A DNA stretch of 64,000 bases from assembly GCA_964492615.1 (NCBI GenBank), contig CAZBKZ010000008.1:13865-77864 (forward strand), read 5' to 3'. Below are positions 7,466 to 60,084 of this stretch, one piece after another. A program made the position numbers and the translations under genes. Position 1 is the stretch's first letter; each line of letters starts with the position of its first letter. A model generated the notes under the pieces. It saw only the letters and a list, made by a program, of their open reading frames with translations, ran no database searches and was not told where the DNA came from. Source of the DNA: an uncultured Syntrophomonadaceae bacterium. GTDB lineage: Bacteria; Bacillota; Dethiobacteria; DTU022.

Positions 7466-7469
7466 TTAA

Positions 7470-8958: not shown

Positions 8959-8984
8959 AAGGAAGGGCTAATGCCCTTCCTTTT
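8959..8984. terminator. Bidirectional hairpin terminator between gatB (+) and serC (-)
   Basis: aaggaagggc-taat-gcccttcc-tttt. Confidence 0.6.
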
Positions 8985-8993
8985 ATGTCACTT

Positions 8994-31558: not shown

Positions 31559-33819
31559 CTGAGAATCACCTCGATCAGTTTCAGGGCAGGCTGTTTGACC
31601 GGTTCACCGGCCTGGTAGGACGGTCCGATACAAGATGGGCAACCGTCAATGCACTGGCAGCTGTTTATAACTGAACGGGCTGCTTTAAAGACTTCACGGT
31701 ATTCTTCAAAGATTTTTTTGCTGTATCCAACCCCGCCGGGGAAATTATCATAAATGTAGATAGTTGGCAGTTCGGTAAAAGGTGCTTTAACCTGGCTGAC
31801 AGCTCGCAGATCGCGGGGGTCGCTCATTAAAAAGAGGGAGGCTACCTCGGGAATAAGGTGAGCAAGCCCGAGCAGACCGGATTGAATTTCAGCTTGAGAC
31901 AATAGCTGCGTCACCTCCGGCTTAAAGGTAACCCAGAAAGCAGTGGTATGCATCTCAGTTTCCGGCAGGTCTACCGGGCCGGCACCCAGGTTTTCATGGG
32001 TGTTAAAGCGTATTTTCTTAAACATGGAAACCAGGGCGTTGATGCGTACATCACCCCAGGCCCGATCTACCTGTTTCTCTCCATCGCTGTTAAAAATGTC
32101 GAGGACTTTGAGGTCAACGCTCAGGTTGGCATCAGTGTAGTAATTAACCTCAACCTGCCGTACAAAAGCTTTTTTTTCTGCAAAATCGAGTTTTTCAACC
32201 TGGAACTGGCGACCGCCATGGATATAAATAGCTTCTTCGTGAACCAGCATAGGTGCGCTGAAGCGATCGACCTCCCCGATAGTAACCGGCTTAGAACCGG
32301 TAATATCAGTAATGACTACATTTTCCATGGTAGCGCTGCGCAGGCTGATTTCTTCCGCCGGATATGCATCCTCCATCCAGTGGAAACGACCATCATTCTG
32401 GTAAAGAACATCTTCATCTTCTAAAAAATGCAGGACATCAAGGATTTCGGCAGTGCCGAAACGGTCATTTTTGTCAAAGGGCAGCTCAAATGCCGCACAA
32501 CGAACATGGTTGGTTAAAATGGTTGGGTTATCCGGATCAGCAAGGGCTCGTTCAGGGGTACGTCCAAAGAAGTAGTCCGGGTTTGAAACTATATACTGGT
32601 TAAGTGGTTCACTGTTGGCAATCAACAGAACCAGCGATTCGCCGCTGCGCCGCCCTGATCGGCCGGCCTGCTGCCAGGTGCTGGCTATACTGCCCGGGTA
32701 ACCGGTGATTATACAGGCATCCAGTGCTCCAATATCTATACCCAGTTCAAGAGCGTTGGTGCTGACCACAGCTTTAACAGCACCACTGCGTAAACCTTCT
32801 TCAATTGCTCTTCGTTCCCGGGGCAGGTAGCCCCCCCGGTAGCCACAGATTCCGCTGTCTCGGCCAGGGCGTTCCCTGAAAGCCTGGCGCAGGTAGGTCA
32901 GCAGTACTTCAACGCCAAGACGGCTGCGGGTGAAAACTATTGTCTGTATATCGTTTCTTATTAATTCAGCGGCAACCTTGCGTGTCTCAAGCAGTGAACT
33001 GCGCCGAATACCGAGTTCTGGATTAACCAGGGGTGGGTTGTAAAAAACAAAATGCTTTTCAGAGCGTGGTGCGCCGTTATCGGTAATTACCGTGAGCGGC
33101 TCTTCTATTAATAAGCCGGCCAGTTCGCCGGGATTCGCGATGGTGGCCGAGCAGAGGATGAAACGGGGGTTTGATCCGTAAAAAGCACAGATTCTTTTTA
33201 ACCTGCGGATCACATTGGCTACGTGACTGCCAAAAACGCCGCGATACTGGTGCATTTCATCAATTACAATATATTTTAAGTTTTGAAATAGCTGCACCCA
33301 CTTGGTATGATGGGGGAGAATGGCCGAGTGAAGCATATCAGGATTGGTTACCACTATATGGCCGCTACGGCGGATACCCTGACGTAATCCCGGTTCTGTG
33401 TCGCCGTCATAAGTGTAACAGTTAAGCTTTAAATCAATGTCGGCTGTCAGGTTACGCAGCTCGGCAACCTGATCCTGAGAAAGGGCTTTTGTAGGAAACA
33501 GGTAAAGGGCCCTGCTGCTGGAATCCTTTATCATCGAACTGACAACAGGCAGGTTATAACAAAGCGTTTTACCGGAAGCAGTTGGAGTTACTACAACCAC
33601 ATGGTCACCATGGTTTACAGCATCTACTGCTTCATACTGATGACTGTATAGTTTGGTTATACCGCGCTTTTTTAGAGAGTTAACCAGTTGTGGCTCAAGA
33701 AATTCCGGAAAAGTCCGGTAACGTCCTTCAGAGGCAGGGACCACTTCCCAGCGGGTAACACTGTTCATAAAAGCCGGATTATCATTCCACTGTTGCAAAA
33801 TATCTTTCAGTTTGCTCAT
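31555..33819 (-). CDS. mrfA: DEAD/DEAH-box helicase with C-terminal DUF1998 four-Cys domain (YprA/MrfA-like)
   Basis: Walker A TPTASGKT, DEMH box, helicase C domain, and C-terminal CQC...CPSC zinc cluster (DUF1998). I chose the start at MSKLKDIL because it follows an AAGGCGGA RBS. Confidence 0.75.
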   Translation of the reverse strand: MSKLKDILQQWNDNPAFMNSVTRWEVVPASEGRYRTFPEFLEPQLVNSLKKRGITKLYSHQYEAVDAVNHGDHVVVVTPTASGKTLCYNLPVVSSMIKDSSSRALYLFPTKALSQDQVAELRNLTADIDLKLNCYTYDGDTEPGLRQGIRRSGHIVVTNPDMLHSAILPHHTKWVQLFQNLKYIVIDEMHQYRGVFGSHVANVIRRLKRICAFYGSNPRFILCSATIANPGELAGLLIEEPLTVITDNGAPRSEKHFVFYNPPLVNPELGIRRSSLLETRKVAAELIRNDIQTIVFTRSRLGVEVLLTYLRQAFRERPGRDSGICGYRGGYLPRERRAIEEGLRSGAVKAVVSTNALELGIDIGALDACIITGYPGSIASTWQQAGRSGRRSGESLVLLIANSEPLNQYIVSNPDYFFGRTPERALADPDNPTILTNHVRCAAFELPFDKNDRFGTAEILDVLHFLEDEDVLYQNDGRFHWMEDAYPAEEISLRSATMENVVITDITGSKPVTIGEVDRFSAPMLVHEEAIYIHGGRQFQVEKLDFAEKKAFVRQVEVNYYTDANLSVDLKVLDIFNSDGEKQVDRAWGDVRINALVSMFKKIRFNTHENLGAGPVDLPETEMHTTAFWVTFKPEVTQLLSQAEIQSGLLGLAHLIPEVASLFLMSDPRDLRAVSQVKAPFTELPTIYIYDNFPGGVGYSKKIFEEYREVFKAARSVINSCQCIDGCPSCIGPSYQAGEPVKQPALKLIEVILS

Positions 33820-33996
33820 CAATTTTTCCGCCTTAAACATCAGTTTGTTATACATAAGGTATATTCGCCGCAAAAAAAGATTATCCTACCTGGCAGCCAA
33901 AAGATGCCCTAAAATCAGAGGATTTGCCGGTCTGCTGCCGAAATAAGTAAAGACAAAAACAGCATTTAATTCTATATATTATAGGAGGTAAGTATT

Positions 33997-35034
33997 ATGC
34001 GTAAAGGTAATCCGTTTGGCACACATCGGGTCATCGAGCCGAAAGGCCTGCTTCCCCAGCCGGCTGTAAAAATCGATAATGATATGGAAATATACGACAA
34101 TGAAGTACTGATCGATGTAGAAGTTTTAAACATTGATTCGGCCAGTTTTACCCAGATTGAAGAAGAGGCCGGTGGTGATGAAGCAAAAATAGCTGAAATT
34201 ATGACCGGTATAGTTGCTAAAAGAGGCAAACACCACAATCCTGTGACCGGTTCAGGGGGGATGCTGATCGGCAGGGCTGAGAAGATAGGCCCTAACTGGA
34301 ATGGGAAAACTCCCCTTAAAGAAGGGCAGCGTCTGGCCACCCTGGTTTCTCTCTCACTTACACCACTCAGAATTGATAAGATCAAGAGAATCCATAAAGA
34401 TATTGACCAGGTAGAAATTGAAGGTAAGGCAATTCTGTTTGAAAGTGGCATATTTGCAGTGTTGCCCGATGATTTGCCCCAGACTCTTTCCCTGGCAGTT
34501 TTGGATGTTGCCGGGGCTGCAGCTCAAACTGCAAAGCTGGTTAAGCCCGGCGACAAGGTAGCCATTATAGGGGCCGGCGGTAAATCGGGCCTGCTCTGCC
34601 TTTATGAAGCCAAGAAGAGAGCGGGTGTTACCGGCCAGGTAATTGGCATCGCTCCGCGGGAGGCCAGCATGAAAAGAGCGGAATCTACCGGTTACTGTGA
34701 TGCGGTACTAATGGCCGATGCTTCGGATGCTATTGATATTATGAATAAAGTTCAGGAAGTCACTGACGGTGCCATGGCTGATGTAACAATCAACTGTGTT
34801 AATATTCCCAACACCGAACTCTCCTCGATTCTGGCTACACGCGATGGTGGCATTGTTTATTATTTCAGCATGGCTACCTCTTTTACCGCGGCAGCACTGG
34901 GTGCTGAAGGTGTGGGTAAAGATGTTACAATGATTGTTGGTAACGGTTATACGAAAGATCATGCTGCTATATCACTGAATATTATGAGGGAAAGTCCGGT
35001 TCTGCGGAAAATATTTGAGGATTTATATACATAG
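33997..35034 (+). CDS. kdd: L-erythro-3,5-diaminohexanoate dehydrogenase-like protein
   Basis: 345 aa with a Rossmann GAGGKSG motif. Length and overall sequence fit the Kdd family as I recall it, and the co-location with kal and kce supports this. The call rests on resemblance from memory, not a database hit. Confidence 0.55.
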   Translation: MRKGNPFGTHRVIEPKGLLPQPAVKIDNDMEIYDNEVLIDVEVLNIDSASFTQIEEEAGGDEAKIAEIMTGIVAKRGKHHNPVTGSGGMLIGRAEKIGPNWNGKTPLKEGQRLATLVSLSLTPLRIDKIKRIHKDIDQVEIEGKAILFESGIFAVLPDDLPQTLSLAVLDVAGAAAQTAKLVKPGDKVAIIGAGGKSGLLCLYEAKKRAGVTGQVIGIAPREASMKRAESTGYCDAVLMADASDAIDIMNKVQEVTDGAMADVTINCVNIPNTELSSILATRDGGIVYYFSMATSFTAAALGAEGVGKDVTMIVGNGYTKDHAAISLNIMRESPVLRKIFEDLYT

Positions 35035-35227
35035 GGTTTAGGAAGGGGAAACGTTACTTTCTGAACTAAGCGAATATTTTGCCTGACTCCTTTTATCATG
35101 TTATTGGAAATATCCGCCATCCGGTTTCCGGGGGAGGTGCAATGGCATAAATTAAAGATTCATCTCTCGGCTTATACTTGCAGTTTAAAATGCTAAAACA
35201 AAATAACTCAAAAGGAGTGATTTTTTA

Positions 35228-36379
35228 ATGCGTGTAGCAGTAGTTGGCGGAAGTGGTGAGATGGGTTCTGCGGCATCTTACGACCTGATGAAGAGCGAGG
35301 GTGTCGAACAGGTTGTTTTGTTGAGCAGAAGAGCAAAAAAAGAGAATTTGCATCCCAAGCTGGCAGCCAGTGAAAAGGTATCGGTAAAGAATGTCGATGT
35401 AAACGATACTGAACAACTGGTAAAGTATCTAAAGGATTTTGATGCTGTTGTCAACTGTGTCGGACCTTTCTTTTCAACCGGGTATAAGGTTGTTAAAGCG
35501 GCTATCCAGGCCGGGGTTCATTACGTAGATATCGACGACGATTATGATTCAGTCAAGTTGATGTTAGACCCCGAACTGGATCGCCAGGCAAAAGAAGCAG
35601 GGATAACTGTTTTATATTCAATGGGTGCAGATCCTGGCACAGGTAACATTTTGGCCAGGAAAGCATGTGACGAAATGGACCAGGTTGATATTGTTGATTT
35701 TTACTGGGTCCTCGGTGCATATGACTGCACTGGTAAAGCAGTATGGGAACACGTATTACATATGAATACCGGTATGGTTCCGCAATTCATTGACGGCAGG
35801 CTGCAGGACGTTCCGGCTGGCTCCGAAGTTGAAGTGGTAGATTTTATTGAACCGTTTGGTGCCTGTGAAGTGCATTTTGTCGGCCACCCGGAGCCACTTA
35901 CCTTCCCCAAATATTTTCTCGATAAAGGGGTTAAGCGGGTAACGAACAAGGGCGGTATGTTGCCCAAGTGGGTTAATGACGATATAAGGGTTCAGAATAA
36001 CTGGGGTTTTACTGGAACTGAACCTATAGAGGTCAATGGACAGATGGTTTCTCCTCATGACATGGCACTGGAACTATGGCGTGAAAGGCCGCCTCAGGGC
36101 GATTTGGGCCAGTATACATCAGGTGTCAAGGTTATCATTAAAGGGGTTAAAGATGGTAATGCTATTACCACTACTTATGATATAGCAGGCAATACGGCCC
36201 CCGGAACCGGGATACCGCCTTCTATCGGAGCGCAGATGATTGTCAGGGGAGATATAACTGAGCGTGGGGTCTTGCCTCCAGAGGCATGCGTCGACCCCCA
36301 GATATACCTCGATGAGTTTGTCAAGAGAAAAGCAGTGATTTATGAAAATCGTCACGTTGAAAATATTATAAAAAAATAA
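35228..36379 (+). CDS. Saccharopine-dehydrogenase-like NAD(P)-binding protein (PF03435-like)
   Basis: N-terminal VAVVGGSGEMG Rossmann motif and Sdh-family architecture; 383 aa. Inserted between kdd and kal. Confidence 0.55.
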   Translation: MRVAVVGGSGEMGSAASYDLMKSEGVEQVVLLSRRAKKENLHPKLAASEKVSVKNVDVNDTEQLVKYLKDFDAVVNCVGPFFSTGYKVVKAAIQAGVHYVDIDDDYDSVKLMLDPELDRQAKEAGITVLYSMGADPGTGNILARKACDEMDQVDIVDFYWVLGAYDCTGKAVWEHVLHMNTGMVPQFIDGRLQDVPAGSEVEVVDFIEPFGACEVHFVGHPEPLTFPKYFLDKGVKRVTNKGGMLPKWVNDDIRVQNNWGFTGTEPIEVNGQMVSPHDMALELWRERPPQGDLGQYTSGVKVIIKGVKDGNAITTTYDIAGNTAPGTGIPPSIGAQMIVRGDITERGVLPPEACVDPQIYLDEFVKRKAVIYENRHVENIIKK

Positions 36380-36559
36380 AGAGTAAGTAGGTAGGATAAC
36401 CGGCCAAAGATGCATGGGGTTCAATTACTACAGCGCGATATCATGATTAATCGACCGATCAGCCATATCCCGGTAGCTGTCCCAGGGCACGGTTAATTAT
36501 CTGTAAAAGCGTCCTGCCTGAAGTATTATGGTTTTACTCCGAAGGAGGAAGCAGTAAAG

Positions 36560-37012
36560 ATGATTAATGAAAAAGTTATGCTGCGGATGCGTATCAGCAG
36601 CCAGGATGTTCATTACGGCGGCGGTTTGGTAGACGGCGCTCAGGTAGTAAAATTATTTGGCGATGTGGCAACCGAACTATTAATTCGTCATGATGGTGAT
36701 GAAGGGTTGTTCGTGGCCTACGATATGGTTGAATTTAAAATGCAGCTTTGCGCCGGTGATTTCCTCGAAGTCTGGGGCTGGATTGACAAGGTTGGCAACT
36801 CTTCGAGACACATGCAGTTTGAAGCTTATAAAGTAATTACCAATGCAGGAATAGTTGATAAACCTTCTGCGTGTGATATGCTGGAAGAACCGGTTCTCCT
36901 GGCCCGGGCCAGCGGCACCTGTGTTGTTCCGCTTGAACTGCAAAGAGGGCCTCAGATCAGCAAGTACCTAAAACCGGAAAGCCGCGATACAGGAGGTTGT
37001 AAAAATGGATAA
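36560..37012 (+). CDS. kal: 3-aminobutyryl-CoA ammonia-lyase-like hotdog-fold protein
   Basis: Small (~150 aa) hotdog-fold-like protein lying between kdd and kce, as in the lysine-fermentation cluster. The call is based on context and resemblance. Confidence 0.5.
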   Translation: MINEKVMLRMRISSQDVHYGGGLVDGAQVVKLFGDVATELLIRHDGDEGLFVAYDMVEFKMQLCAGDFLEVWGWIDKVGNSSRHMQFEAYKVITNAGIVDKPSACDMLEEPVLLARASGTCVVPLELQRGPQISKYLKPESRDTGGCKNG

Positions 37013-37817
37013 ACTGATTATTACCGCCGCCCTGACCGGCGCCGAAGTTACAAGGGAGCACAATCCCAACCTGCCAGTAACACCGGCTGAGATTGCCGAG
37101 GCTTCTTATGACTGTTTTAATGCAGGGGCTTCGATGGTTCATGTTCATGTACGTAATCAGGATGGAGCACCGACGCAGTCTGCTGATGTTTTCAAAGAAA
37201 CAATGGAGCTGATCAAGGAAAAATGCAATATCATTGTTCAAACATCAACTGGTGGTGCCGTGGGCATGCCCGCCGAGGAGAGACTGCAGCCAGTTTATCT
37301 TAAGCCTGAGATGGCCACTCTCTCAACCGGCTCGGTAAACTTTGGTGATGACGTTTTTTTGAACCCCCCGGCTTACCTTGAAGAATTTGCCAGGGTGATG
37401 AAGGAGCAGGGTGTAAAGCCCGAGATAGAGGCATTTGATGTAGGGATGATTAACAATGCTCTGTATTTATTAAAAAAAGAATTAATATCGTCTCCGATTC
37501 ATTTTGACTTTGTGATGGGTGTCCCAGGTGGAATACCGGGAACGGTTAAAAACCTGCTGCATATGGTGGAGAGTATACCGGCAGGCAGTACCTGGACAGT
37601 GGCAGGTATGGGAAGAACAGAATTGCCCCTTGGCACGGCAGCGATTATCATGGGGGGTAATGTAAGGGTCGGTTTTGAGGATAATATATATTATGAAAAA
37701 GGAGTTCTGGCCGAAAGCAACGCTCAATTAGTTGAGCGCATAGCGCGTATTTCCAAAATACATGGTCGGGAAGTGGCTTCTCCGGATGAAGCACGGCAGA
37801 TTCTTGGGCTGAAGTAA
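37005..37817 (+). CDS. kce: 3-keto-5-aminohexanoate cleavage enzyme (BKACE/DUF849 family)
   Basis: N-terminal M.KLIITAALTGAE... and overall TIM-barrel BKACE hallmarks; 270 aa; overlaps the kal stop codon. Confidence 0.7.
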   Translation: MDKLIITAALTGAEVTREHNPNLPVTPAEIAEASYDCFNAGASMVHVHVRNQDGAPTQSADVFKETMELIKEKCNIIVQTSTGGAVGMPAEERLQPVYLKPEMATLSTGSVNFGDDVFLNPPAYLEEFARVMKEQGVKPEIEAFDVGMINNALYLLKKELISSPIHFDFVMGVPGGIPGTVKNLLHMVESIPAGSTWTVAGMGRTELPLGTAAIIMGGNVRVGFEDNIYYEKGVLAESNAQLVERIARISKIHGREVASPDEARQILGLK

Positions 37818-37844
37818 TTTATAACTAAAGCAGGTATTTTTTAA

Positions 37845-37880
37845 AAGACCTTCCTTAAATGAGGGAGGTCTTACCTTTTT
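37845..37880 (+). terminator. Rho-independent terminator after kce
   Basis: aagaccttcc-ttaaatga-gggaggtctt, then accttttt. Confidence 0.6.
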
Positions 37881-38062
37881 ACAGGGAAACAAACGACACC
37901 GGGTATATTGTTTAAGTATCAGTTTTGGTAACAGGACAGGCTAAAGGTAATTCCTGTAACTGGAGCGTTTTTAATTTGACTGATTAAACTATCATTTGCC
38001 CGTCATAAAAAAAAATAGTAACATGAAAAAATAAAAAACTGTAGCATGGAAGGGTGACAAAC

Positions 38063-39313
38063 ATGGAATCAAAACCAAGATTAAAGCTGGAAAAGTCGCT
38101 GGCCTTGTTTGAGGAAGCAAAAAAATTGTCTCCGGGCGGGGTTATGGGAATCAGGAGACCTTATAATTTTGTTGAGGGTGAATACCCGATTTACCTCAGT
38201 CATGGACGTGAAGGCCATATTTTTGATGTAGACGGCAACGAATATATAGATATGTTGTGTGCCTATGGACCGATTATCTTAGGCTACAGCGAACCGGAAA
38301 TTAACAGGGCAGTAGTGGAGCAGATGGAAAAGGGCTTTTGCTTTTCCCTGGTTCAACCGATTCAAAATGATTTAATGAAACGTTTGATTAATCTAATCCC
38401 ATCGGCAGAAATGGGACTACTGCTGAAAACAGGCTCCGATGCAACGGGTGTTGCGGTGCGTATTGCAAGGGGTTATAGTGGCAAAGATCTGATTTTGCGC
38501 TGCGGTTACCACGGATGGATGGATTGGTGTGTTGAGGTACCTGGTGGTGTTTCGAAAAAGATTCGTGACCTGACCCTGGATTTTCCTTATGGCGATCTGG
38601 ATGCCCTGGAAGCATTAATCCTTTCAAATAAAGATGATGTTGCCTGTATTATTCTCACGCCGGTTGGTCATCCGCTTGCCGAGCCTGTTGTTGCTCCTCC
38701 CAGGGGTTACCTGGAAGGAGTGCGTGCTCTGGCTGATAAGTATAAAATCATTTTAATTTTTGATGAGATCCGCACCGGTTTCAGGGTTGCAATGGGGGGA
38801 GCTCAGGAGCGTTATGGTGTAGTCCCCGACATGACAACTGTTGGTAAAGCCCTGGCTAATGGCTACGCTATTAGTGCCTGTCTGGGTAAAGCGGAAATAA
38901 TGAAAGTAGCGGAAAAAGAAGTGTTTGTCAGCTCAACTTTTTTCCCCAACAGCCTGGCCATGGTTGCAGCTATGAAATGTCTTGATATCCTTGAACGGGA
39001 AAATGTAATTGAAACTGTCTGGCAGCGTGGTGAGAGATTTCTGAGTGAACTCGGCAAGGCAGTTTCTGCATCAAAAGTGCCGGCAACTGTATCTGGTATT
39101 CCGCCCATGCCATTTTTAACTTTTGACAAAGTAGATAATCTGTACAGTAAGCGGCGTATAGATTTTTACACCGAAACAATCAGGCGCGGTCTCTTTATCC
39201 AACCTTATCACCACTGGTATATTTCATACCGGCATACTGAAGATGATATGGATCAGGCCCTTTGCGCTATTAAAGAAGCCCTGCAAATTGTGGCACAGAG
39301 GTACCCATATTAA
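38063..39313 (+). CDS. Class-III aminotransferase-fold enzyme, glutamate-1-semialdehyde 2,1-aminomutase-like
   Basis: N-terminal KSLALFEEAKKLSPGGV resembles HemL. PLP-lysine region TVGKALANGY. Own promoter and terminator context; start at 38063 after a GGAAGGG RBS. Confidence 0.6.
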   Translation: MESKPRLKLEKSLALFEEAKKLSPGGVMGIRRPYNFVEGEYPIYLSHGREGHIFDVDGNEYIDMLCAYGPIILGYSEPEINRAVVEQMEKGFCFSLVQPIQNDLMKRLINLIPSAEMGLLLKTGSDATGVAVRIARGYSGKDLILRCGYHGWMDWCVEVPGGVSKKIRDLTLDFPYGDLDALEALILSNKDDVACIILTPVGHPLAEPVVAPPRGYLEGVRALADKYKIILIFDEIRTGFRVAMGGAQERYGVVPDMTTVGKALANGYAISACLGKAEIMKVAEKEVFVSSTFFPNSLAMVAAMKCLDILERENVIETVWQRGERFLSELGKAVSASKVPATVSGIPPMPFLTFDKVDNLYSKRRIDFYTETIRRGLFIQPYHHWYISYRHTEDDMDQALCAIKEALQIVAQRYPY

Positions 39314-39358
39314 GTAAAGGAAGGGTGATGAAGTAATAGCAGGAGGATATTACCATGC

Positions 39359-40294
39359 TCAACTGTTTTTGAATAGCGCTCCCTGGTAAGTTCCCCGCTT
39401 TTTAAGTTCACTTTCAACCATGGATGCCAGCTGTCCCGAACTAACAGGCCAGCGAGGAGCTGTCAGCAAAACTTTACTGCTGGCCTGGCTGGCCAGGCGA
39501 TGAATAACACAGGCAGGCGATAACCTTTCCAGACAATCACAGAGCAGATCAATGTAATGTTCGGGTTGATCGAATACTTCGATTGAACCCTCCTCGTAGT
39601 CGGAAGCAAGGGGGGTTCCCCTGATTATCTGGAGATGGTGAAATTTTATTCCGTCTATTTTGCATTTATTCAGGAAATCGATGGTGGCGAGTATCATCTC
39701 TTTTGTTTCGCCGGGAAGGCCTAAGATTATATGCGCACAAATAAAAATTCCCCTGGAGGTTGTCAGCTCCATTGCTTTGGTGAATGCAGCCGAGCCGTGT
39801 CCCCGGTTGATACGTTTTAAGGTTTGATCATGAGCAGACTGCAATCCGTATTCGATCCATGTATGGCAGCGGGCAGCGTACACTTCCAGCAGATCGATAA
39901 TTTCCGCTGAAATACAGTCAGGACGGGTTGCAATACTTAAACCGGCAACCTCATCATCTGACAGCGCTTGATCGTAAAGCACCTTTAACTCTCCCACCGG
40001 GGCATAGGTATTGGTGTAAGCCTGGAAGTAAGCCAGGTAGAGGGCATTCCTGCTCTTTTTCTTGCCTTTCAGTATCTGCTCTCTCACCGAAAGTGTTTTT
40101 TTGCCGCTAAAAGGTGAAAACGATGGGTTGTAGCAATAGCTGCAGCCGCCGGTTCCCACAGTGCCGTCCCTGTTGGGGCAGCTAAAGCCTGCATCAAGAG
40201 GAATTTTATAAACCGGTTTTCCGAATCTTTCTTTAAAAAATTGGCTGAGACGATAATACCAGCCCGGCTGAATTTTATCCCGGTCAGGATTCAT
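39359..40294 (-). CDS. TIGR01212-family radical SAM protein
   Basis: [16 protein letters not shown] radical-SAM cysteine motif near the N-terminus. The start at 40294 (MNPDRDK...) has an AAAGGAA RBS and abuts the mnmG stop. Confidence 0.7.
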
Positions 40295-45787: not shown

Positions 45788-47329
45788 ATGAGTAGAACCG
45801 GTATACTGATTAACAAGCCATATAAAAAGCTCAGCAGGGAGCAGGTTGAACTTATTGATCAAACCTCTCTTGAGCTCTTACAAACCCCCGGGATATTATG
45901 CTATCACGAAGAAAGTACCACCCTTTTTGAAAAGGAAGGCGCAAAAATAAAAAAAACCAAAGAAGGTGAACATGATGCCTGGTGGATTAGTATTCCACCC
46001 GGAGTTGTAAAGAGTGCTCTTGAGTCTGCTCCGGCCAGGGTTACCCTGGGTGCCCGCAATCCCGAAAATAGGGTAGTTTTAGACGCAGAAGGAAACAGGG
46101 TCTACTTCGGCACTGGTTCTGAAACTAATTACTGGCTGGAAATCGAGCCGGAGGAATTTACTTCTGATAAAGATGGGGCCAGGAGAACATTTGCGGTTAT
46201 GAAAAAAAGCCGGGGCAGCCTTAACCTGCTCTGCCGATCAGCTCATCTGGCAGAACAGCTGGAAAATCTCGATTTTTTTATCCGCAATGTTAATATTCAG
46301 GATTCTGATATTACAACAGGCAATAAAGACGTCAACGTATTTTTTGCTTCACTTAACCATCTGACTAAACCTGTTATCGGTGGGGTTGCTGATTATGAGC
46401 AGCTGGAAAAAATTGTTAGAATAGCTGAAATAATTGCCGGAGGAAGAGAGCAATTGAGGGAAAATCCCCTGGTTGCATTCATAACCAGCGTTATAAAAAG
46501 CCCGCTGCAGGTTGTTGATGATACCGCAGAAAAGTTAATTGCCATTGCCAGGCTCGGATTGCCTGTTGTTATTTCTACTTCTCCTCAGGGAGGATCAACA
46601 GCGCCTATCGATATGCTGGGTATGGTTGCCCAGGTTAATGCCGAAGCCCTGGCCGGTATAACCATTAATCAGCTTGCCAGTCGCGGCGCACCGGTGATTT
46701 ACGGGGCTGTCCCAGTCAGAGCCAGGATGGATGACTTGCATGACATGTACGGGGTCCCTGAATTCTGTCAATACACTATGGCCTGTGCACAGATGGCCAG
46801 GTATTACGGGGTGCCCTGTTATTCCACGGCAGGGGTTGGCGATGCCAAGGTTCCTGGTATTCAGGCAACAATGGAAAAAATGTACACCCATAGCATGGTT
46901 CCGCTTGCTGCTCCTGACCTGGTGCATTATTCTTTTGGGCTTCTTGACAAGACTCAGACTTATAGTCCGGAACAGGCAGTGCTGGATAATCATCAGATTG
47001 GCATGGTAAAATTTTTGCAAAGAGAACAGGAAGTTAATAGCAATTCAGCAGCTAAAACTAAGAAAATGATAGCTGACGTTATGCACAGCCCATACAGGAT
47101 GTATGCCCGTTATGCCAGGGGGATGCTCAGGCGTGGGGAAATTTTCGCCGGATTTCCTTTTGAAGGGAAATTGGAAGATCAGGACCAGACTTTGCTTAAG
47201 GTGCATGAAAAATTTGCTGAATTGGAAGCGGCTAAACCTAAATACCTGCCGGAAGATACCTGTAAATTAATCTTTAATGAAATATCCGGGCTTCTTCCGC
47301 GGCTTAATCCTTATGGGGAGGTTAAATAA
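45788..47329 (+). CDS. MttB-superfamily methyltransferase lacking pyrrolysine (glycine betaine/quaternary-amine:corrinoid methyltransferase-like, MtgB-type)
   Basis: 513-aa uninterrupted ORF (no in-frame TAG) with MttB-family TIM-barrel sequence features. Directly followed by a corrinoid protein gene. Confidence 0.8.
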   Translation: MSRTGILINKPYKKLSREQVELIDQTSLELLQTPGILCYHEESTTLFEKEGAKIKKTKEGEHDAWWISIPPGVVKSALESAPARVTLGARNPENRVVLDAEGNRVYFGTGSETNYWLEIEPEEFTSDKDGARRTFAVMKKSRGSLNLLCRSAHLAEQLENLDFFIRNVNIQDSDITTGNKDVNVFFASLNHLTKPVIGGVADYEQLEKIVRIAEIIAGGREQLRENPLVAFITSVIKSPLQVVDDTAEKLIAIARLGLPVVISTSPQGGSTAPIDMLGMVAQVNAEALAGITINQLASRGAPVIYGAVPVRARMDDLHDMYGVPEFCQYTMACAQMARYYGVPCYSTAGVGDAKVPGIQATMEKMYTHSMVPLAAPDLVHYSFGLLDKTQTYSPEQAVLDNHQIGMVKFLQREQEVNSNSAAKTKKMIADVMHSPYRMYARYARGMLRRGEIFAGFPFEGKLEDQDQTLLKVHEKFAELEAAKPKYLPEDTCKLIFNEISGLLPRLNPYGEVK

Positions 47330-48028
47330 ATGAGCAGTGATCTGCTTGAATTAATTGTAGAGAATGTTTTACAGGGTCGTCGTAACAGTGATGATGAAGG
47401 CATTGAGGAAGGAGATTTTGGTCAACCAGGGGTTGCTGAGCTGGTTGCCAGGGCCCTTGAAGATGGCATTAATACGGAACAGGTTCTCATAGATGGGCTC
47501 AGCCGTGGGATGCAGATGGTCGGTGACAAGTACGAAAGCGGTGAATACTTTATTCCTGATATGCTCACTGCAGCCGAAGCAGTGGAAGCCGGAATGGCTG
47601 TTCTGGAACCGTACCTGGTCAGCGGAGGTGAAAAGGCCGGCCGGGGTAAAATAGTAATGGCAACGGTTGAAAAAGATCTGCATGATATTGGCAAGAACCT
47701 TGTAACCATAATGCTCAAGGGGGCAGGCTTTAACGTGATTGACCTGGGAATTGATGTGCCGGCTGCCCGAGTGGTTGAGGTAGCTGAGCAGGAAGGCGCT
47801 GCCGTAATCGGTCTTTCGGCTTTACTTAACACTACAATGTCCAACATGAGTGAAGTGGTTAAGCTGCTTGAGGAGAAAGGGCTTCATGACCGCATCAAGG
47901 TATTAATTGGCGGTGCACCCGTATCCGATGATTTTGCAAGGGAAATCGGTGCAGATAGTTATGGCAAAGATGCTTTTGCGGCGATAAAAGAAGCAGAAAA
48001 ACTAATTGTATCCGGAGGGAATGTATAA
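47330..48028 (+). CDS. Cobalamin-binding corrinoid protein (MtbC/MtgC-like)
   Basis: N-terminal B12-binding-2 helical cap plus a Rossmann-like B12-binding domain with DxHxxG (DLHDIGKNLV); 232 aa. Confidence 0.8.
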   Translation: MSSDLLELIVENVLQGRRNSDDEGIEEGDFGQPGVAELVARALEDGINTEQVLIDGLSRGMQMVGDKYESGEYFIPDMLTAAEAVEAGMAVLEPYLVSGGEKAGRGKIVMATVEKDLHDIGKNLVTIMLKGAGFNVIDLGIDVPAARVVEVAEQEGAAVIGLSALLNTTMSNMSEVVKLLEEKGLHDRIKVLIGGAPVSDDFAREIGADSYGKDAFAAIKEAEKLIVSGGNV

Positions 48029-49658: not shown

Positions 49659-50396
49659 ATGAACCTGAATGATGGCTTATTATCTAGTTATTTGTTTTCG
49701 GAAACCGGTTTTTCTTCTGTCACCGGACAGTCAGGCGTTGCGTCCTTATTTTCACGAACTGTTACATATTTTATGCGACGCAGTGATTTAGTCTGGGATT
49801 TGCTTTTAGAGCACATCTGGCTGGTTCTGGTATCAATTTTAATTGCAGTGGCAATAGCTGTCACAATTGGGGTTATCATCAGTTACAAGAGCAGTATAGC
49901 TATTACAGTAATAACTGTCTGCCAGATCTTGATGACCATCCCCAGTATGGCGATGCTTGCTTTTATGGTTCCCATCTTCGGCATAGGTTTTACTACCGGA
50001 GTAATGGCCTTGATCCTTTACAGCTTACTGCCGATCGTTCGCAACACATACACCGGTATTAAGGAAATCAGTCCTGCTATTGTAGAATCGGCAGTGGCCA
50101 TGGGCATGACCGAGTGGAGAGTATTGACCAAAATTAAGATCCCCCTGGCCCGCCCGGTAATCATGGCAGGTATCCGTACGGCAACTGTTATGATCGTTGG
50201 TATCGGCGCTATTGCAGCTTATGTAGGTGCCGGAGGGCTGGGAGAGTTAATTTTTCAGGGGATTTCCCGCTCACATGAACCGATGATAATTGTCGGAGCC
50301 CTTGGAGTTTCAATCATAGCGCTTGCTTTTGATTTCATTCTTTCGTGGGGAGAAAAAAAACTCATGGCAATCAGTAGAACAGGGGAGGCCAAGTAA
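49659..50396 (+). CDS. Osmoprotectant/betaine ABC transporter permease (OpuCB/ProW-like)
   Basis: Multi-TM permease with the ABC importer EAA-like loop region; its stop overlaps the ATPase start. Confidence 0.75.
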   Translation: MNLNDGLLSSYLFSETGFSSVTGQSGVASLFSRTVTYFMRRSDLVWDLLLEHIWLVLVSILIAVAIAVTIGVIISYKSSIAITVITVCQILMTIPSMAMLAFMVPIFGIGFTTGVMALILYSLLPIVRNTYTGIKEISPAIVESAVAMGMTEWRVLTKIKIPLARPVIMAGIRTATVMIVGIGAIAAYVGAGGLGELIFQGISRSHEPMIIVGALGVSIIALAFDFILSWGEKKLMAISRTGEAK

Positions 50397-51508
50397 TGAT
50401 CAAACTAGAAGGAATATCTAAAATATTTCCGGGATCCAAGGTACCGGCTGTTGATAACCTGAACCTGGAAGTTAAAGAAGGCGATATATGTGTTCTGGTT
50501 GGTCCTTCTGGATGCGGAAAGACCACAACCATGAAGATGATTAACCGGATTCACGAACCCAGCAGTGGATCAATCTACATAAATGGTAAAGACGCTTTGA
50601 AAATGAATCCGATTAAACTGCGCCTGGATATCGGCTACGTTATTCAGGAAATCGGATTATTTCCCCATCATACAATTGAAGAGAATGTGGCTACCGTTCC
50701 CAATGAAAAAAAGTGGCCCAGGGAAAAAACAAGAAAAAGAGTGGCCGAAATGTTGACCCTGGTTGGTTTGGACCCGGAAATTTACGGTAACCGCTATCCA
50801 TCCGCATTGAGCGGTGGGCAGCGCCAGCGGGTCGGAGTGGCACGGGCCATGGTCTCCGATCCCCCGATCATGTTGATGGATGAACCTTTTGGCGCAGTTG
50901 ACCCGATTACCAGAGCACGCTTGCAGAATGAATTTTTAAGGATCCAGGAAAGAATCAGTAAAACCATCGTTTTTGTAACCCATGATATCGATGAAGCGAT
51001 TAAGATGGGTGATACAATCGCAGTAATGAGAGAGGGCAAACTGGTGCAGCATGCTACACCGAGTGATTTGCTCAGCGCTCCTGCTGATGAGTTTGTAGGC
51101 AACCTGGTCGGACGAAACCGTTCTATCAAGCGTCTTCACCTGATTCGTATCCGTGAAATACTGGAACATGTGGACAGGGCAAAACCAGCCACAGTGGACA
51201 TGTCATTGAATGATCTGAAGCAGAGGCTTGATGATAGCGAAATTCATTCGGTTATGGTTGTTGATCGCGACAACAAGCTTAAAGGCGTTATCGGGGTTGC
51301 TGATCTTAAGCGCAAAGCCGGTGAAGTGGCTGCCGATTACATTCAGGAGTTGGATCAATCCGTTACAAGCGATGCTACTCTTAACGATGCGCTTTCGGTG
51401 ATGCTTGAATGCGGCGAGGGGTTTGTTGCCGTCGTTAATGAAGACGATCAATACCAGGGGACAATTACCCTTGGTGATTTGCTAAATGTTGTGAAGGAGG
51501 ACGGATAA
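50396..51508 (+). CDS. Glycine betaine/carnitine/choline ABC transporter ATP-binding protein with tandem C-terminal CBS domains (OpuCA/ProV-like)
   Basis: Walker A GPSGCGKTT, signature LSGGQRQR, Walker B LMDEP, followed by two CBS domains. Confidence 0.85.
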   Translation: MIKLEGISKIFPGSKVPAVDNLNLEVKEGDICVLVGPSGCGKTTTMKMINRIHEPSSGSIYINGKDALKMNPIKLRLDIGYVIQEIGLFPHHTIEENVATVPNEKKWPREKTRKRVAEMLTLVGLDPEIYGNRYPSALSGGQRQRVGVARAMVSDPPIMLMDEPFGAVDPITRARLQNEFLRIQERISKTIVFVTHDIDEAIKMGDTIAVMREGKLVQHATPSDLLSAPADEFVGNLVGRNRSIKRLHLIRIREILEHVDRAKPATVDMSLNDLKQRLDDSEIHSVMVVDRDNKLKGVIGVADLKRKAGEVAADYIQELDQSVTSDATLNDALSVMLECGEGFVAVVNEDDQYQGTITLGDLLNVVKEDG

Positions 51509-51511
51509 TCG

Positions 51512-52234
51512 ATGCTGCGAGATATCTGGCGGTGGGGCATACTTCCTCTTTTGTTGATTGCTGTAGGAGTTGCAATTGTAGTTTATGGAGTTAATAATCC
51601 AACCGATTCGCTGGTAGCCCGGGCGCTTACTTACGAAAATGTACTTAGGGGTTTGCGTCAGCACCTGATGCTTATGGTCGTCTCAATGTTTGGCGCAATT
51701 GTTATTGGTGTGTTGGTTGGTATAATGCTTTCCCGCCCAAAACTGTATTACCTGGGGCGCGGTGTTGAAAATGTGGTTAACGTGGGACAGACAATCCCCA
51801 GCCTGGCTATACTGGCTTTGTTTTTTACCATCATGGGGCTCGGTTTTAACGTGGCAGTATTCGCCCTGTTTTTATATTCTATTCTTCCCATCCTCAGGAA
51901 TACGTTTGCCGGTATTGTTAACGTGCAGAAGAGTATTATTGAATCGGCCAGGGGAATGGGTATGAATCCGTTACGTATTTTAGTCAAGATTGAACTGCCC
52001 CTGGCATTTCCGATTATAGTGGCAGGGATTCGCACAGCGATAGTTATAAACGTTGGCGCAGCTACCCTGGCTACCTTTATTGGTGGTGGAGGATTTGGTG
52101 ATTTAATTGTTACCGGCCTTTCACTGCGCCGGGATATGATTGTTTTTACCGGGGCAGGTCTGGCTGCCCTGACGGCAATATTTCTTGACTACTATATTGC
52201 CAGAATTGAAGAAAGATTGGTCAGGTGGACCTGA
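51512..52234 (+). CDS. Osmoprotectant ABC transporter permease (second permease, OpuCD-like)
   Basis: Paralogous to the first permease (...ILPI.RNT..GI..V...). Confidence 0.8.
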   Translation: MLRDIWRWGILPLLLIAVGVAIVVYGVNNPTDSLVARALTYENVLRGLRQHLMLMVVSMFGAIVIGVLVGIMLSRPKLYYLGRGVENVVNVGQTIPSLAILALFFTIMGLGFNVAVFALFLYSILPILRNTFAGIVNVQKSIIESARGMGMNPLRILVKIELPLAFPIIVAGIRTAIVINVGAATLATFIGGGGFGDLIVTGLSLRRDMIVFTGAGLAALTAIFLDYYIARIEERLVRWT

Positions 52235-52297
52235 TCATTTTAAGGTTTGGCTATTTTCCCATATGAGCAAATACCTGAAGGGGGTAAATCTATTAAA

Positions 52298-53218
52298 ATG
52301 TTTAAACGAGTTTTAATTACATTGATCATCATTGCATTACTGGCGGGTTCTCTATTTATATCTGGTTGCCAGTCTGGTGAAGATGGAGTAGTAATTGGTT
52401 CAAAGGAGTTCACCGAGTCGTTGATTCTCAGCCAGATATCCATACTGGCGCTCGAGGCAAATGGGATCCCGACAGTTGATGAAACAGGGCTTGGAGGTAC
52501 TGTAGTTGCCCGCGAAGCTCTTGAAGCAGGAGAAATCGATCACTACTGGGAATATACAGGAACAGCTTTGGTCAATTACTTCGGATTTGATGTACTTACC
52601 GATCCTGAGGAATGCTATCAGCTGGTTAGGGATACTGATCTTGAAAGAAATAATCTGGTATGGCTCGATTACACACAGTATAACAATACTTATGTAATTA
52701 TGATGCGCCAGGCAGATGCAGATGCTCTCGGTATTTATTCGATCAGTGATCTTGCTGCAGCTATTAACGAAGAGGTGGAAGCTCCTGAGCCGGGCACCTG
52801 GAAATTTGGTACCAATCATGAATACTCAACCCGTGATGACGGTTTTCCCGGTTTGCTTGAGCACTACGATTTTGAATTTGACAGTGTTGAAGTAATGGAT
52901 TACGGAATTCTTTATACAGCCCTGAGAGACGGTGAATTAGCCTCGGCGATGGGTTTTGGAACAGATGGCCGTATCACTCCTTTCGAATTGGTTATTCTGG
53001 AAGATGACCAGTTCTTTCACCCTGTCTACAACAGTTCCCCTGTTTTCCGTCAGGAAGTGATTGATGAGTATCCACAAATTCCGGAAATCTTAGGCCCAAT
53101 TGCAACTGCTCTTGACAATGAGAATATGGCGAATTTAAATAGGTTGGTTGATGAAGAAGATCATCTGCCAAGAGAAGTTGCCGAAGAATGGTTAATCGAG
53201 CAGGGTTTTATTGAATAG
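52298..53218 (+). CDS. Osmoprotectant (glycine betaine/choline-type) ABC transporter substrate-binding lipoprotein (OpuCC-like)
   Basis: Lipobox FISGCQ, ~300-aa mature protein, OpuAC/OpuCC-family fold features. Start at MFKRV after an AAGGGGG RBS. Confidence 0.8.
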   Translation: MFKRVLITLIIIALLAGSLFISGCQSGEDGVVIGSKEFTESLILSQISILALEANGIPTVDETGLGGTVVAREALEAGEIDHYWEYTGTALVNYFGFDVLTDPEECYQLVRDTDLERNNLVWLDYTQYNNTYVIMMRQADADALGIYSISDLAAAINEEVEAPEPGTWKFGTNHEYSTRDDGFPGLLEHYDFEFDSVEVMDYGILYTALRDGELASAMGFGTDGRITPFELVILEDDQFFHPVYNSSPVFRQEVIDEYPQIPEILGPIATALDNENMANLNRLVDEEDHLPREVAEEWLIEQGFIE

Positions 53219-59917: not shown

Positions 59918-60084
59918 AGACCGGGCTTTATACCAGGTCAGGCTTTGTCATGGCATATCTCTTATTATAGCAGAGTATTTTTCCGGCATGCAATTGTTAC
60001 CCTGCCCTGATTATGAACATTATGATAAAATGGTATTGATTTTGCTCAAAAAGGTATCCTATATTTTTGCAGGGAGGGGCTTAT

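What the first reader, a model, noticed from the sequence alone, without database searches (positions are those of the whole stretch)
33997..39313. Lysine-fermentation-like cluster (kdd, saccharopine-dehydrogenase-like, kal, kce) with a separately transcribed GSA-aminomutase-like PLP enzyme and no kamA/kamDE in the window
The window has a 345-aa Kdd-like dehydrogenase, a ~150-aa hotdog-fold Kal-like protein and a BKACE/DUF849 Kce-like enzyme. These are the three lower-pathway enzymes that convert 3,5-diaminohexanoate to 3-aminobutyryl-CoA and acetoacetate and then to crotonyl-CoA plus NH3. The radical-SAM lysine 2,3-aminomutase and the B12-dependent beta-lysine 5,6-aminomutase are not nearby. 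Instead a saccharopine-dehydrogenase-family oxidoreductase sits inside the operon. A HemL-like PLP enzyme, an intramolecular amino-group mutase fold, follows under its own promoter. This could be a variant route generating the diamino or keto-amino acid substrate without B12-dependent chemistry. Alternatively the BKACE/Kdd pair may act on a different substrate, such as a beta-lysine-type compatible solute, which would fit an organism that also imports and catabolises betaines.
Basis: partly seen in the sequence, partly recalled or inferred. Interest (0 to 1): 0.7.

Follow-up and report, generated by a model that had tools for sequence, protein, structure and literature searches.

The report
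Split lysine-fermentation operon with Kat
This is the lower half of the known bacterial lysine fermentation pathway (kdd, kal, kce) followed by the already characterised 'HemL-like' 3-aminobutyryl-CoA aminotransferase Kat, so it is mostly ordinary. The one unexplained gene, a saccharopine-dehydrogenase-fold enzyme, turns out to sit next to Kat-type genes in many anaerobes.

Summary
The region 33997-39313 encodes Kdd, an SDH-fold oxidoreductase, Kal, Kce and a HemL-like class-III PLP enzyme. Kdd, Kal and Kce all exceed NCBIfam equivalog cut-offs. No kamA, kamD or kamE lies anywhere in the 64 kb window.

The proposed B12-independent route is not supported. A 'HemL-like' enzyme in lysine-fermentation clusters was characterised in 2011 as Kat, the 3-aminobutyryl-CoA:2-oxoglutarate aminotransferase (PMC3149608). 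Homologues 70-75% identical to the window protein sit between kamE or kdd and kce in clusters that also carry lysine-pathway genes (kamDE and kamA in L013). A 67% homologue of the SDH-like gene is co-operonic with kamDE, so it does not replace the mutase.

One result is new. The SDH-like protein is an operonic partner of Kat-type aminotransferases in nearly every locus recovered (66 of 76 directly adjacent, median gap 20 bp), mostly outside lysine clusters. Its fold matches lysine 6-dehydrogenase, carboxyspermidine dehydrogenase and saccharopine reductase.

Best reading: a split lower lysine-fermentation operon of a Dethiobacteria bacterium with two exits for 3-aminobutyryl-CoA, Kal and Kat. 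The SDH-like enzyme is the likely NADP-linked deaminating partner of Kat. The upper pathway is presumably encoded elsewhere; this was not tested.

The parts
33997..35034 (+). kdd, L-erythro-3,5-diaminohexanoate dehydrogenase (345 aa)
   Evidence: NF052381 270.6 bits against a cut-off of 200. PF26370 KDD_N on the identical metagenome contigs. 384 bits to solved 3,5-DAH dehydrogenase 7dl3. AGGAGG ribosome-binding site upstream.
35228..36379 (+). Saccharopine-dehydrogenase-fold NAD(P) oxidoreductase (383 aa). It is a conserved partner of Kat-type aminotransferases; its substrate is unknown.
36560..37012 (+). [quoted passage not shown]
   Evidence: NF052388 170.2 bits against a cut-off of 160. 108.6 bits to beta-alanyl-CoA ammonia-lyase 4mtu. 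Overlaps the kce start by 8 nt.
37005..37817 (+). [quoted passage not shown]
   Evidence: NF052387 442.7 bits against a cut-off of 382; PF05853 371.6 bits. 297 bits to Cloacimonas Kce 2y7d. The HxH, GFEDN and N-terminal TGAE motifs are conserved in the printed alignment.
37845..37882 (+). Intrinsic-terminator-like hairpin plus T-run between kce and kat
   Evidence: 12-bp stem. -18.3 kcal/mol, z = -4.05. The stem is kept with changed bases on both sides in the 95% relative L014.
38063..39313 (+). kat-like class-III PLP aminotransferase ('HemL-like', 416 aa from ATG 38063; the ORF opens at GTG 38054)
   Evidence: PF00202 175 bits. hemL TIGR00713 271.5 bits against a cut-off of 527. Homologues 70-75% identical lie between kamE or kdd and kce in L013, L018 and L097. 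53% identical to the AT417 group, some members of which IMG names '3-aminobutanoyl-CoA transaminase'.

Best explanation
The locus is the lower half of the lysine fermentation pathway in an uncultured Dethiobacteria bacterium (Bacillota).

Proposed mechanism:
1. Kdd oxidatively deaminates L-erythro-3,5-diaminohexanoate to 3-keto-5-aminohexanoate.
2. Kce transfers the C4 unit onto acetyl-CoA, giving (S)-3-aminobutyryl-CoA and acetoacetate.
3. 3-Aminobutyryl-CoA then has two exits. Kal, in the operon, eliminates ammonia to give crotonyl-CoA. The separately terminated 'HemL-like' gene is a Kat-type beta-aminoacyl-CoA aminotransferase, which gives acetoacetyl-CoA and glutamate.

The SDH-fold protein is an NAD(P)-dependent amine/imine oxidoreductase and the conserved operonic partner of Kat-type enzymes. 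My committed guess, at about 40%, is that it supplies the pyridine-nucleotide half of a transaminase/dehydrogenase couple. It would do this either by re-oxidising the amino carrier or by directly deaminating the beta-aminoacyl-CoA. The net reaction would then be 3-aminobutyryl-CoA + NADP+ -> acetoacetyl-CoA + NH4+ + NADPH.

The upper pathway (KamA, KamDE) and the CoA-transferase, thiolase and Bcd steps are encoded elsewhere in the genome. This is inferred, not shown.

Shown here: family membership of Kdd, Kal and Kce; the fold of the SDH-like protein; the gene-neighbourhood statistics. Inferred: Kat activity, the SDH-like reaction, the transcription units, and the presence of kamA/kamDE elsewhere.
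For: - Kdd, Kal and Kce exceed the NCBIfam equivalog cut-offs. Kdd and Kce have strong matches to the solved canonical enzymes, and Kal matches beta-alanyl-CoA ammonia-lyase.
- Kat precedent: a 'HemL-like' gene at the kal locus was shown to be a 3-aminobutyryl-CoA:2-oxoglutarate aminotransferase that acts only on thioesters (PMC3149608).
- Window Kat-like homologues of 70-75% identity lie inside or next to lysine-fermentation genes in 5 of the 6 contexts outside the window's own lineage that were inspected. These are L013 with the full cluster, L018 kdd-SDH-kat-kce, L097 kdd-kat-kce-HP-mutS, L098 thl-hbd-crt...kamA...kat and L011 kamA-atoDA...kat. L012 shows no such genes.
- IMG names some proteins of the AT417 group '3-aminobutanoyl-CoA transaminase'. 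The listed AT417 homologues are 74-96% identical to AT417, which is itself 53-56% identical to the window protein and its close homologues.
- SDH-like homologues occur in lysine clusters in four different arrangements: the window, L018, L007 and L020.
- SDH-like and Kat-like genes are adjacent in 66 of 76 loci. They share a strand in 63, the AT is downstream in 62, and the median gap is 20 bp. Most exceptions are contig ends or ORF-picking artefacts.
- Split lysine clusters are documented for Cloacimonas and are seen here in L011 and L098.
- The same gene order is kept in a 95% relative (L014). A 79% relative (L018) keeps the same chromosomal site, helicase/RNaseH | cluster | mnmG-nadE.
Against: - kamA, kamD and kamE were not found in the window, nor within 10 kb of the cluster in the relatives L014 and L018. 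The rest of the genome could not be searched, so the source of 3,5-diaminohexanoate is unproven.
- The sequence of the characterised Kat (CLOAM0809) could not be obtained, so identity to it is untested.
- In 2011 Perret et al. found no clear Kat homologue in IMG or the other metagenome and gut-survey collections they searched, and only one RefSeq protein at 60% identity. The Bacillota family may therefore be a somewhat distant branch.
- Having both Kal and Kat looks redundant.
- No PF03435-family enzyme is known to act on glutamate or on an acyl-CoA.
- Some SDH-like homologues lack a neighbouring Kat: L007, L020, L099 and L100.
- The Kal score is only just above its cut-off (170 against 160).
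Confidence: 0.7

Rival explanations
1. One reading: the SDH-like dehydrogenase and the HemL-like enzyme, acting as an intramolecular aminomutase, together make 3,5-diaminohexanoate or 3-keto-5-aminohexanoate from lysine or beta-lysine. They would thereby replace the radical-SAM and B12 mutases.
For: - No kamA/kamDE in 64 kb, nor near the cluster in two relatives.
- The HemL-like protein's best named hits include GSA aminomutase.
- The SDH-like fold is that of lysine 6-dehydrogenase.
Against: - A 67% SDH-like homologue is co-operonic with kamD and kamE (L007).
- A 72% HemL-like homologue lies between kamE and kce, with kamA downstream (L013).
- The characterised family member is a transaminase acting after Kce (PMC3149608).
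- The hemL model score is half its cut-off.
- The SDH-like/Kat-like pair occurs in about 70 loci that lack kdd and kce altogether, so its job is not to feed Kdd.
- No PLP/NAD chemistry is known that moves an amino group from C6 to an unactivated C5 (established enzymology).
- The organism encodes corrinoid-dependent enzymes.
Confidence: 0.06
2. The genome truly lacks the upper pathway. The cluster scavenges externally supplied 3,5-diaminohexanoate, beta-lysine-derived solutes or 3-aminobutyrate-type compounds released by neighbours (cross-feeding). The SDH-like protein would process an additional omega- or (omega-1)-amino group of that substrate.
For: - The lower-pathway-only arrangement is conserved in three related genomes (window, L014, L018).
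- Kal and Kat without the rest of the pathway have been reported in sediment Thaumarchaeota and interpreted as scavenging (PMC8397731).
- A 53% SDH-like homologue sits in a different basic-amino-acid-type catabolic operon (L100).
- LysDH is a top structural match.
Against: - No transporter gene is in or next to the cluster.
- 3,5-Diaminohexanoate is not a known extracellular metabolite (my knowledge).
- Split clusters with kamA elsewhere are common in relatives.
- The rest of the genome was not examined.
Confidence: 0.14
3. The SDH-like enzyme deaminates the C5 amino group at the C6 stage, converting 3-keto-5-aminohexanoate to 3,5-dioxohexanoate, which a BKACE then cleaves. This would be a third, Kal- and Kat-independent way of removing the second nitrogen.
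For: - L007 and L020 show kdd, kce and the SDH-like gene with no kal or kat in view.
- NCBIfam holds a BKACE equivalog for 3,5-dioxohexanoate cleavage, and window Kce scores 244 bits to it.
- The fold is that of amine dehydrogenases.
Against: - The window and L018 keep kal or kat beside the SDH-like gene, which would then be redundant.
- Kce in all these loci keeps the N-terminal TGAE glutamate. I recall this residue as contacting the substrate amino group; the conservation is, and the role is from my memory of the 2y7d paper.
- This model does not explain the near-obligate pairing with Kat-type genes outside lysine clusters.
Confidence: 0.1

Closest known systems
Kat-variant lysine fermentation cluster of 'Candidatus Cloacimonas acidaminovorans' and a digester Bacteroidetes contig (Perret et al. 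2011, PMC3149608)
   Same: A class-III aminotransferase annotated as HemL (GSA aminomutase) sits beside kce and kdd. kdd and kce are canonical. The clusters can be split across the genome.
   Different: In those organisms kat replaces kal; here both kal and kat are present. The kat-like gene here lies behind a terminator-like hairpin. An SDH-fold gene, not mentioned in that paper (0 occurrences of 'saccharopine'), is inserted after kdd. Identity to the characterised Kat could not be measured.
Canonical lysine fermentation cluster (Fusobacterium nucleatum / Clostridium sticklandii type: kamA, kamDE, kdd, kce, kal, atoAD, thl), as summarised in PMC3149608
   Same: kdd, kce and kal are equivalogs. 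kal and kce are translationally coupled.
   Different: kamA, kamD, kamE, the MutS-like and HP reactivase-type genes, atoAD and thl are all absent from the 64 kb window. SDH-like and kat-like genes are present in addition.
L-lysine 6-dehydrogenase (PH1688, 3abi), carboxy(nor)spermidine dehydrogenase (8deb, 8h4z, 4ina) and saccharopine reductase (1e5l, 1ff9): the PF03435 family
   Different: Only about 20% identity. 32 bits against a cut-off of 800 for the carboxynorspermidine synthase equivalog. The genomic partner is a beta-aminoacyl-CoA-type aminotransferase, not polyamine or lysine-biosynthesis genes. The substrate is unknown.
Glutamate-1-semialdehyde 2,1-aminomutase (HemL)
   Same: Closest solved structures by sequence (about 212 bits). 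Same class-III fold.
   Different: Scores about half the hemL equivalog cut-off (271.5 against 527.3). No haem-biosynthesis neighbours. Close homologues are embedded in lysine-fermentation clusters.

Membership tests
Lysine fermentation lower pathway (Kdd/Kce/Kal) | Kdd: match to the 3,5-diaminohexanoate dehydrogenase equivalog above its curated cut-off | tested here: met
   NF052381 270.6 bits against 200. 384 bits to 7dl3.
Lysine fermentation lower pathway (Kdd/Kce/Kal) | Kce: BKACE fold, Kce equivalog above cut-off, metal and substrate motifs kept | tested here: met
   NF052387 442.7 bits against 382; PF05853 371.6 bits. The alignment to 2y7d keeps HxH, GFEDN and TGAE. The assignment of these motifs to Zn and substrate binding is from my memory of the structure paper.
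Lysine fermentation lower pathway (Kdd/Kce/Kal) | Kal: match to the 3-aminobutyryl-CoA ammonia-lyase equivalog above cut-off | tested here: met
   NF052388 170.2 bits against 160, a narrow margin. Homology to beta-alanyl-CoA ammonia-lyase 4mtu.
Complete lysine fermentation cluster | kamA (radical SAM plus LAM_C) and kamD/kamE (Lys-AminoMut_A; OAM_dimer plus B12-binding) in the same locus | tested here: not met
   blastp with L013 KamA/D/E gave no hit in the window except a 26% B12-domain match to a methyltransferase corrinoid protein. Pfam of all window ORFs found none.
Complete lysine fermentation cluster | kamA/kamDE present somewhere in the same genome | not testable with these tools
The remainder of the MAG cannot be read.
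Kat, 3-aminobutyryl-CoA aminotransferase (EC 2.6.1.111) | Class-III PLP fold, HemL-like but not HemL | tested here: met
   PF00202 175 bits. hemL 271.5 bits against 527.3.
Kat, 3-aminobutyryl-CoA aminotransferase (EC 2.6.1.111) | Gene located within or beside lysine-fermentation genes, at the kal position | tested here: met
   In the window it lies directly after kce. Homologues in L013, L018 and L097 lie between kamE or kdd and kce.
Kat, 3-aminobutyryl-CoA aminotransferase (EC 2.6.1.111) | High sequence identity to the characterised CLOAM0809 / DIG1_60031 proteins | not testable with these tools
   The sequence is not in PDB, NCBIfam or the paper. Indirect support only: IMG labels some proteins of the AT417 group, whose reference copy is 53% identical to the window protein, as '3-aminobutanoyl-CoA transaminase'.
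Kat, 3-aminobutyryl-CoA aminotransferase (EC 2.6.1.111) | Transaminates 3-aminobutyryl-CoA, not free beta-amino acids | not testable with these tools
   Needs an enzyme assay.
HemL (glutamate-1-semialdehyde 2,1-aminomutase) | Score at or above the TIGR00713 / PRK00062 cut-offs | tested here: not met
   271.5 bits against 527.3, and 268.1 against 398.
PF03435 saccharopine-reductase / LysDH / CASDH superfamily | N-terminal NADP-binding domain plus C-terminal domain, and the matching 3-D fold | tested here: met
Carboxy(nor)spermidine dehydrogenase / lysine 6-dehydrogenase (specific enzymes) | Equivalog-level sequence match | tested here: not met
   NF043000 32 bits against 800. About 20% identity to 8deb and 3abi.

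The most novel reading that the evidence does not exclude
The SDH-fold oxidoreductase and the Kat-type aminotransferase may form an undescribed two-enzyme module. It is found from Dethiobacteria lysine clusters to Thermodesulfobacteriota and Syntrophorhabdaceae operons that also carry a 4-hydroxybenzoyl-CoA-reductase-like Se/Mo enzyme. The module would carry out a new NAD(P)-linked reaction on beta-aminoacyl-CoA or diamino substrates. Candidate reactions are a PLP/NADP-coupled oxidative deamination and an omega-amine dehydrogenation that opens a B12-independent branch of (beta-)lysine catabolism. In this lineage the module would have been recruited into the lysine fermentation operon.
Probability: 0.3. 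Interest if true: 0.6.

Novelty: new variant of a known kind. Interest (0 to 1): 0.4.

Why it matters
The finding does not reveal a B12-free lysine pathway. Four of the five genes are new members of characterised families, and the 'aminomutase' has been explained since 2011.

It does show a cluster variant that carries both known exits for 3-aminobutyryl-CoA, Kal and Kat. This would let an anaerobe choose between a reductive route (crotonyl-CoA to butyrate) and an oxidative route (acetoacetyl-CoA to acetate plus ATP).

It also exposes a conserved, uncharacterised SDH-fold partner of Kat-type transaminases. Assigning that enzyme would fill a gap left open in the published Kat pathway, namely how the amino group or 2-oxoglutarate is recycled. 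It would also annotate hundreds of 'saccharopine dehydrogenase' and 'HemL' gene pairs in sediment and digester anaerobes.

Tried and rejected
- Riboswitch or leader RNA in the 180-245 nt intergenic gaps: Rfam at gathering threshold over the window, and at E <= 1 over 33700-39500, found nothing in the cluster. Spacer conservation against L014 is no higher than expected for a 95% relative.
- Sigma-54 promoter: some related clusters carry sigma-54 activators, but a regex scan found none here. The sigma-70 consensus scan gave no more hits than shuffles, and none upstream of kdd or kat.
- Obtaining the characterised Kat sequence for a direct comparison failed. It is not in PDB, has no NCBIfam model among the hits, and is not in the paper or its supplements. 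Two homologue searches returned only closer, unnamed relatives.
- Genome-collection scan with the SDH-like protein: only one true relative was found (L014), so organism-level synteny is thin.
- Literature search for an SDH-like gene in lysine fermentation gave no relevant paper.
- The Foldseek afdb50 library was unavailable.
- I considered the SDH-like protein as a beta-ketoacyl-CoA reductase, the 'missing' acetoacetyl-CoA to crotonyl-CoA link noted by Perret. I ranked this low because the 12 best structural neighbours all act on C-N bonds.
- I considered the HemL-like protein as the true HemL. I rejected this on the model score and on the context of its close homologues.

Full report
**Observation**

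- NCBIfam places three of them in lysine-fermentation equivalogs above the curated cut-offs. Kdd at 33997-35034 scores 270.6 bits on NF052381 against 200. Kal at 36560-37012 scores 170.2 on NF052388 against 160. Kce at 37005-37817 scores 442.7 on NF052387 against 382.
- Pfam agrees for Kce (BKACE, 371.6 bits).
- Kdd scores 384 bits to the solved 3,5-diaminohexanoate dehydrogenase 7dl3. Kce scores 297 bits to Cloacimonas Kce 2y7d with the HxH, GFEDN and TGAE motifs conserved. Kal is homologous to beta-alanyl-CoA ammonia-lyase.
- The 383-aa protein at 35228-36379 carries both saccharopine-dehydrogenase Pfam domains and reaches no equivalog.
- The last ORF is a class-III PLP enzyme. Its best named hits include HemL at about half the cut-off (271.5 bits against 527.3). 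Its likely start is the ATG at 38063, giving 416 aa, as called on the identical metagenome contigs.
- kal and kce overlap by 8 nt.
- A 12-bp hairpin plus T-run follows kce at 37845-37882. It folds at -18.3 kcal/mol with z = -4.05 and keeps its stem with changed bases in a 95% relative. A transcriptional break before the last gene is therefore plausible. A separate promoter was not demonstrated.

**Surroundings**

- All remaining window ORFs of at least 120 aa were annotated. Upstream, on the - strand, lie an MrfA-type helicase and an RNase-H-like protein. Downstream, also on the - strand, lie mnmL/ytqA, mnmG and nadE.
- Further out are metal transporters, gatA/B, feoAB, two MttB-family methyltransferases with a corrinoid protein, and an OpuA-type betaine ABC transporter.
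- There is no kamA, kamD, kamE, atoAD, thiolase or bcd/etf anywhere in the window.
- blastp with KamA, KamD and KamE taken from locus L013 hit only the B12 domain of the methyltransferase corrinoid protein, at 26% identity.
- Rfam found only a PYLIS_3 match, in an MttB homologue, and nothing in the cluster.

**Organism**

- The identical locus occurs on several metagenome contigs.
- The only close genome in the GTDB collection is an 'uncultured Syntrophomonadaceae bacterium' MAG, at 95% identity and with the same gene order (L014).
- A member of the 90% protein cluster is named 'Dethiobacteria bacterium'.

**The HemL-like gene**

- Perret et al. 2011 (PMC3149608) found a gene annotated hemL at the kal locus of lysine-fermentation clusters. 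They showed that the protein, Kat, transaminates 3-aminobutyryl-CoA with 2-oxoglutarate to give acetoacetyl-CoA. It acts only on thioesters.
- The window protein belongs to a very conserved Bacillota family; the 120 best hits are at least 69% identical.
- I inspected six contexts outside the window's own lineage, and five carry lysine-pathway genes:
  - L013: kdd-HP-sigma54 activator-kamD-kamE-[AT]-kce-kamA-atoD-atoA-thl (72% identity).
  - L018: kdd-SDH-[AT]-kce (75%).
  - L097: kdd-[AT]-kce-HP-mutS-like (70%).
  - L098: thl-hbd-crt-...-kamA-mttB-[AT].
  - L011, Zhaonella: kamA-atoDA-...-[AT].
  - L012 shows none.
- The window protein is 53% identical to a second large group, referred to here as AT417. 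IMG names some proteins of that group '3-aminobutanoyl-CoA transaminase'.
- I could not obtain the sequence of the characterised enzyme, so direct identity is untested.
- On context and family, the protein is most likely a Kat-type beta-aminoacyl-CoA aminotransferase acting after Kce. It is unlikely to be a mutase acting before Kdd.

**The SDH-like gene**

- Close homologues (63-100% identity) are few. They appear in lysine clusters in four arrangements:
  - the window and L014: kdd-SDH-kal-kce|kat;
  - L018: kdd-SDH-kat-kce, at the same chromosomal site between the helicase and mnmG;
  - L007: PucR/kdd-HP-mutS-kamD-kamE-kce-SDH-LysO (67% identity);
  - L020: SDH-kce-kdd.
- Co-operonic kamDE in L007 shows that the SDH-like gene does not replace the B12 mutase.
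- A metagenome scan with an alignment of the family returned 80 loci at 42-79% identity. In these loci and in L009 the SDH-like gene is immediately next to a Kat-like gene in 66 of the 76 SDH-like genes retained. They share a strand in 63, the AT is downstream in 62, and the median gap is 20 bp.
- Of the ten exceptions, five end within 250 bp of the contig edge. Four have the AT within about 1 kb according to blast. Only L020 has a different neighbour.
- Most of these loci have no kdd or kce. Their commonest other neighbours are as follows:
  - a three-subunit xanthine-dehydrogenase-family enzyme best matching 4-hydroxybenzoyl-CoA reductase, though below its cut-offs;
  - the selenium-dependent molybdenum-cofactor protein YqeB;
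  - a thiolase-like protein;
  - a methylmalonyl-CoA-epimerase-like protein;
  - a family-III CoA-transferase.
- The named hits are from Thermodesulfobacteriota and Syntrophorhabdaceae.
- The lysine-cluster subgroup has Ser-Arg after strand beta2, which suggests NADP. Several members of the 45-46% identity group have Asp there, which suggests NAD (inference).

**Mechanism**

Shown by family membership:
1. Kdd converts 3,5-diaminohexanoate to 3-keto-5-aminohexanoate.
2. Kce, with acetyl-CoA, gives 3-aminobutyryl-CoA and acetoacetate.
3. Kal gives crotonyl-CoA and NH3.

Inferred from context and precedent: the Kat-like enzyme offers a second exit to acetoacetyl-CoA and glutamate.

Inferred from fold and neighbourhood: the SDH-like enzyme handles the nitrogen or carbonyl that Kat handles. 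My committed guess, at about 40%, is a transaminase/dehydrogenase couple whose net reaction is NADP-linked oxidative deamination of 3-aminobutyryl-CoA. This fits the dehydrogenase step that Perret's scheme needs to recycle 2-oxoglutarate.

Alternatives for the SDH-like enzyme:
- an (omega-1)- or omega-amine dehydrogenase acting on the C6 diamino or keto-amino acid, or on (beta-)lysine (about 25-30%);
- a beta-ketoacyl-CoA reductase (about 10%);
- something else.

**Source of 3,5-diaminohexanoate**

This is unresolved. Split clusters are documented and are seen in relatives.

**Verdict**

The B12-independent-route idea is unlikely, at about 6%. The locus is a new variant of a known system. Its interesting residue is the conserved, uncharacterised pairing of the SDH-like gene with Kat-type genes.

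Noticed in passing
window 54866-54965 (inside ORF 53906-55360): The Rfam PYLIS_3 (mttB pyrrolysine insertion element) match, 52.8 bits, lies inside an uninterrupted 484-aa MttB-family ORF with no in-frame stop. This looks like a non-pyrrolysine MttB homologue that keeps the RNA-like sequence. It sits beside an OpuA-type betaine ABC transporter (49659-53218), a second MttB homologue (45788-47329) and a corrinoid protein (47330-48028).
   Followed up: partly
L009, L031, L055, L063, L075, L083 and about 35 other loci of L021-L096: There is a recurrent module in Thermodesulfobacteriota- and Syntrophorhabdaceae-type contigs. It comprises a three-subunit 4-hydroxybenzoyl-CoA-reductase-like Mo enzyme (617 bits against a cut-off of 995), YqeB (Se-dependent Mo cofactor), a MoeA-like protein and a thiolase-like protein, followed by the SDH-like and Kat-like genes. 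Often a methylmalonyl-CoA-epimerase-like protein, a family-III CoA-transferase and Liv-type ABC transporters are also present. The substrate is unknown.
   Followed up: partly
L011 (Zhaonella formicivorans CP085524.1) 3339-11254; L098 4484-11254: kamA, an NhaC-family transporter and (in L011) atoDA lie a few kb upstream of the Kat-like gene. An MttB-family gene sits immediately before it. No kdd, kce or kamDE lies within 10 kb. This could be a split cluster or a KamA-plus-Kat (beta-lysyl-CoA?) route.
   Followed up: no
L018 7549-8649: In the 79% relative a 366-aa protein with an HTH domain and a 4Fe-4S ferredoxin domain sits directly upstream of kdd on the same strand. It is a possible regulator. 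It is absent from the window, where no regulator adjoins the cluster.
   Followed up: partly
L018 8738-13323 versus window 33997-39313: At the same chromosomal site the sister lineage has kdd-SDH-kat-kce and no kal. The window has kdd-SDH-kal-kce, then a terminator-like hairpin, then kat. So kal was gained, or kat was displaced, within this lineage.
   Followed up: partly
L100 5094-13390: A 53% SDH-like homologue lies in a different PucR-associated operon. Its neighbours are a 2-hydroxyacid dehydrogenase, an SSF transporter, a TPP enzyme, a DDAH/arginine-deiminase-like protein and an ADP-forming acyl-CoA synthetase. Ornithine carbamoyltransferase and an AbfD/HpaB-like protein are nearby. This hints at an amine-dehydrogenase role in another basic-amino-acid pathway.
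   Followed up: no
L007 3969-5000; L013 5139-6158; L097 12132-13040: A conserved protein of about 300-343 aa with no Pfam match accompanies kamDE and/or the MutS-like gene in lysine clusters. It is the 'HP' of Perret's Figure 2 and remains unannotated.
   Followed up: no
window 8994-10214 (-) and 60067-60510 (+): ORFs of 406 aa and 147 aa have no Pfam match at E <= 1e-4.
   Followed up: no
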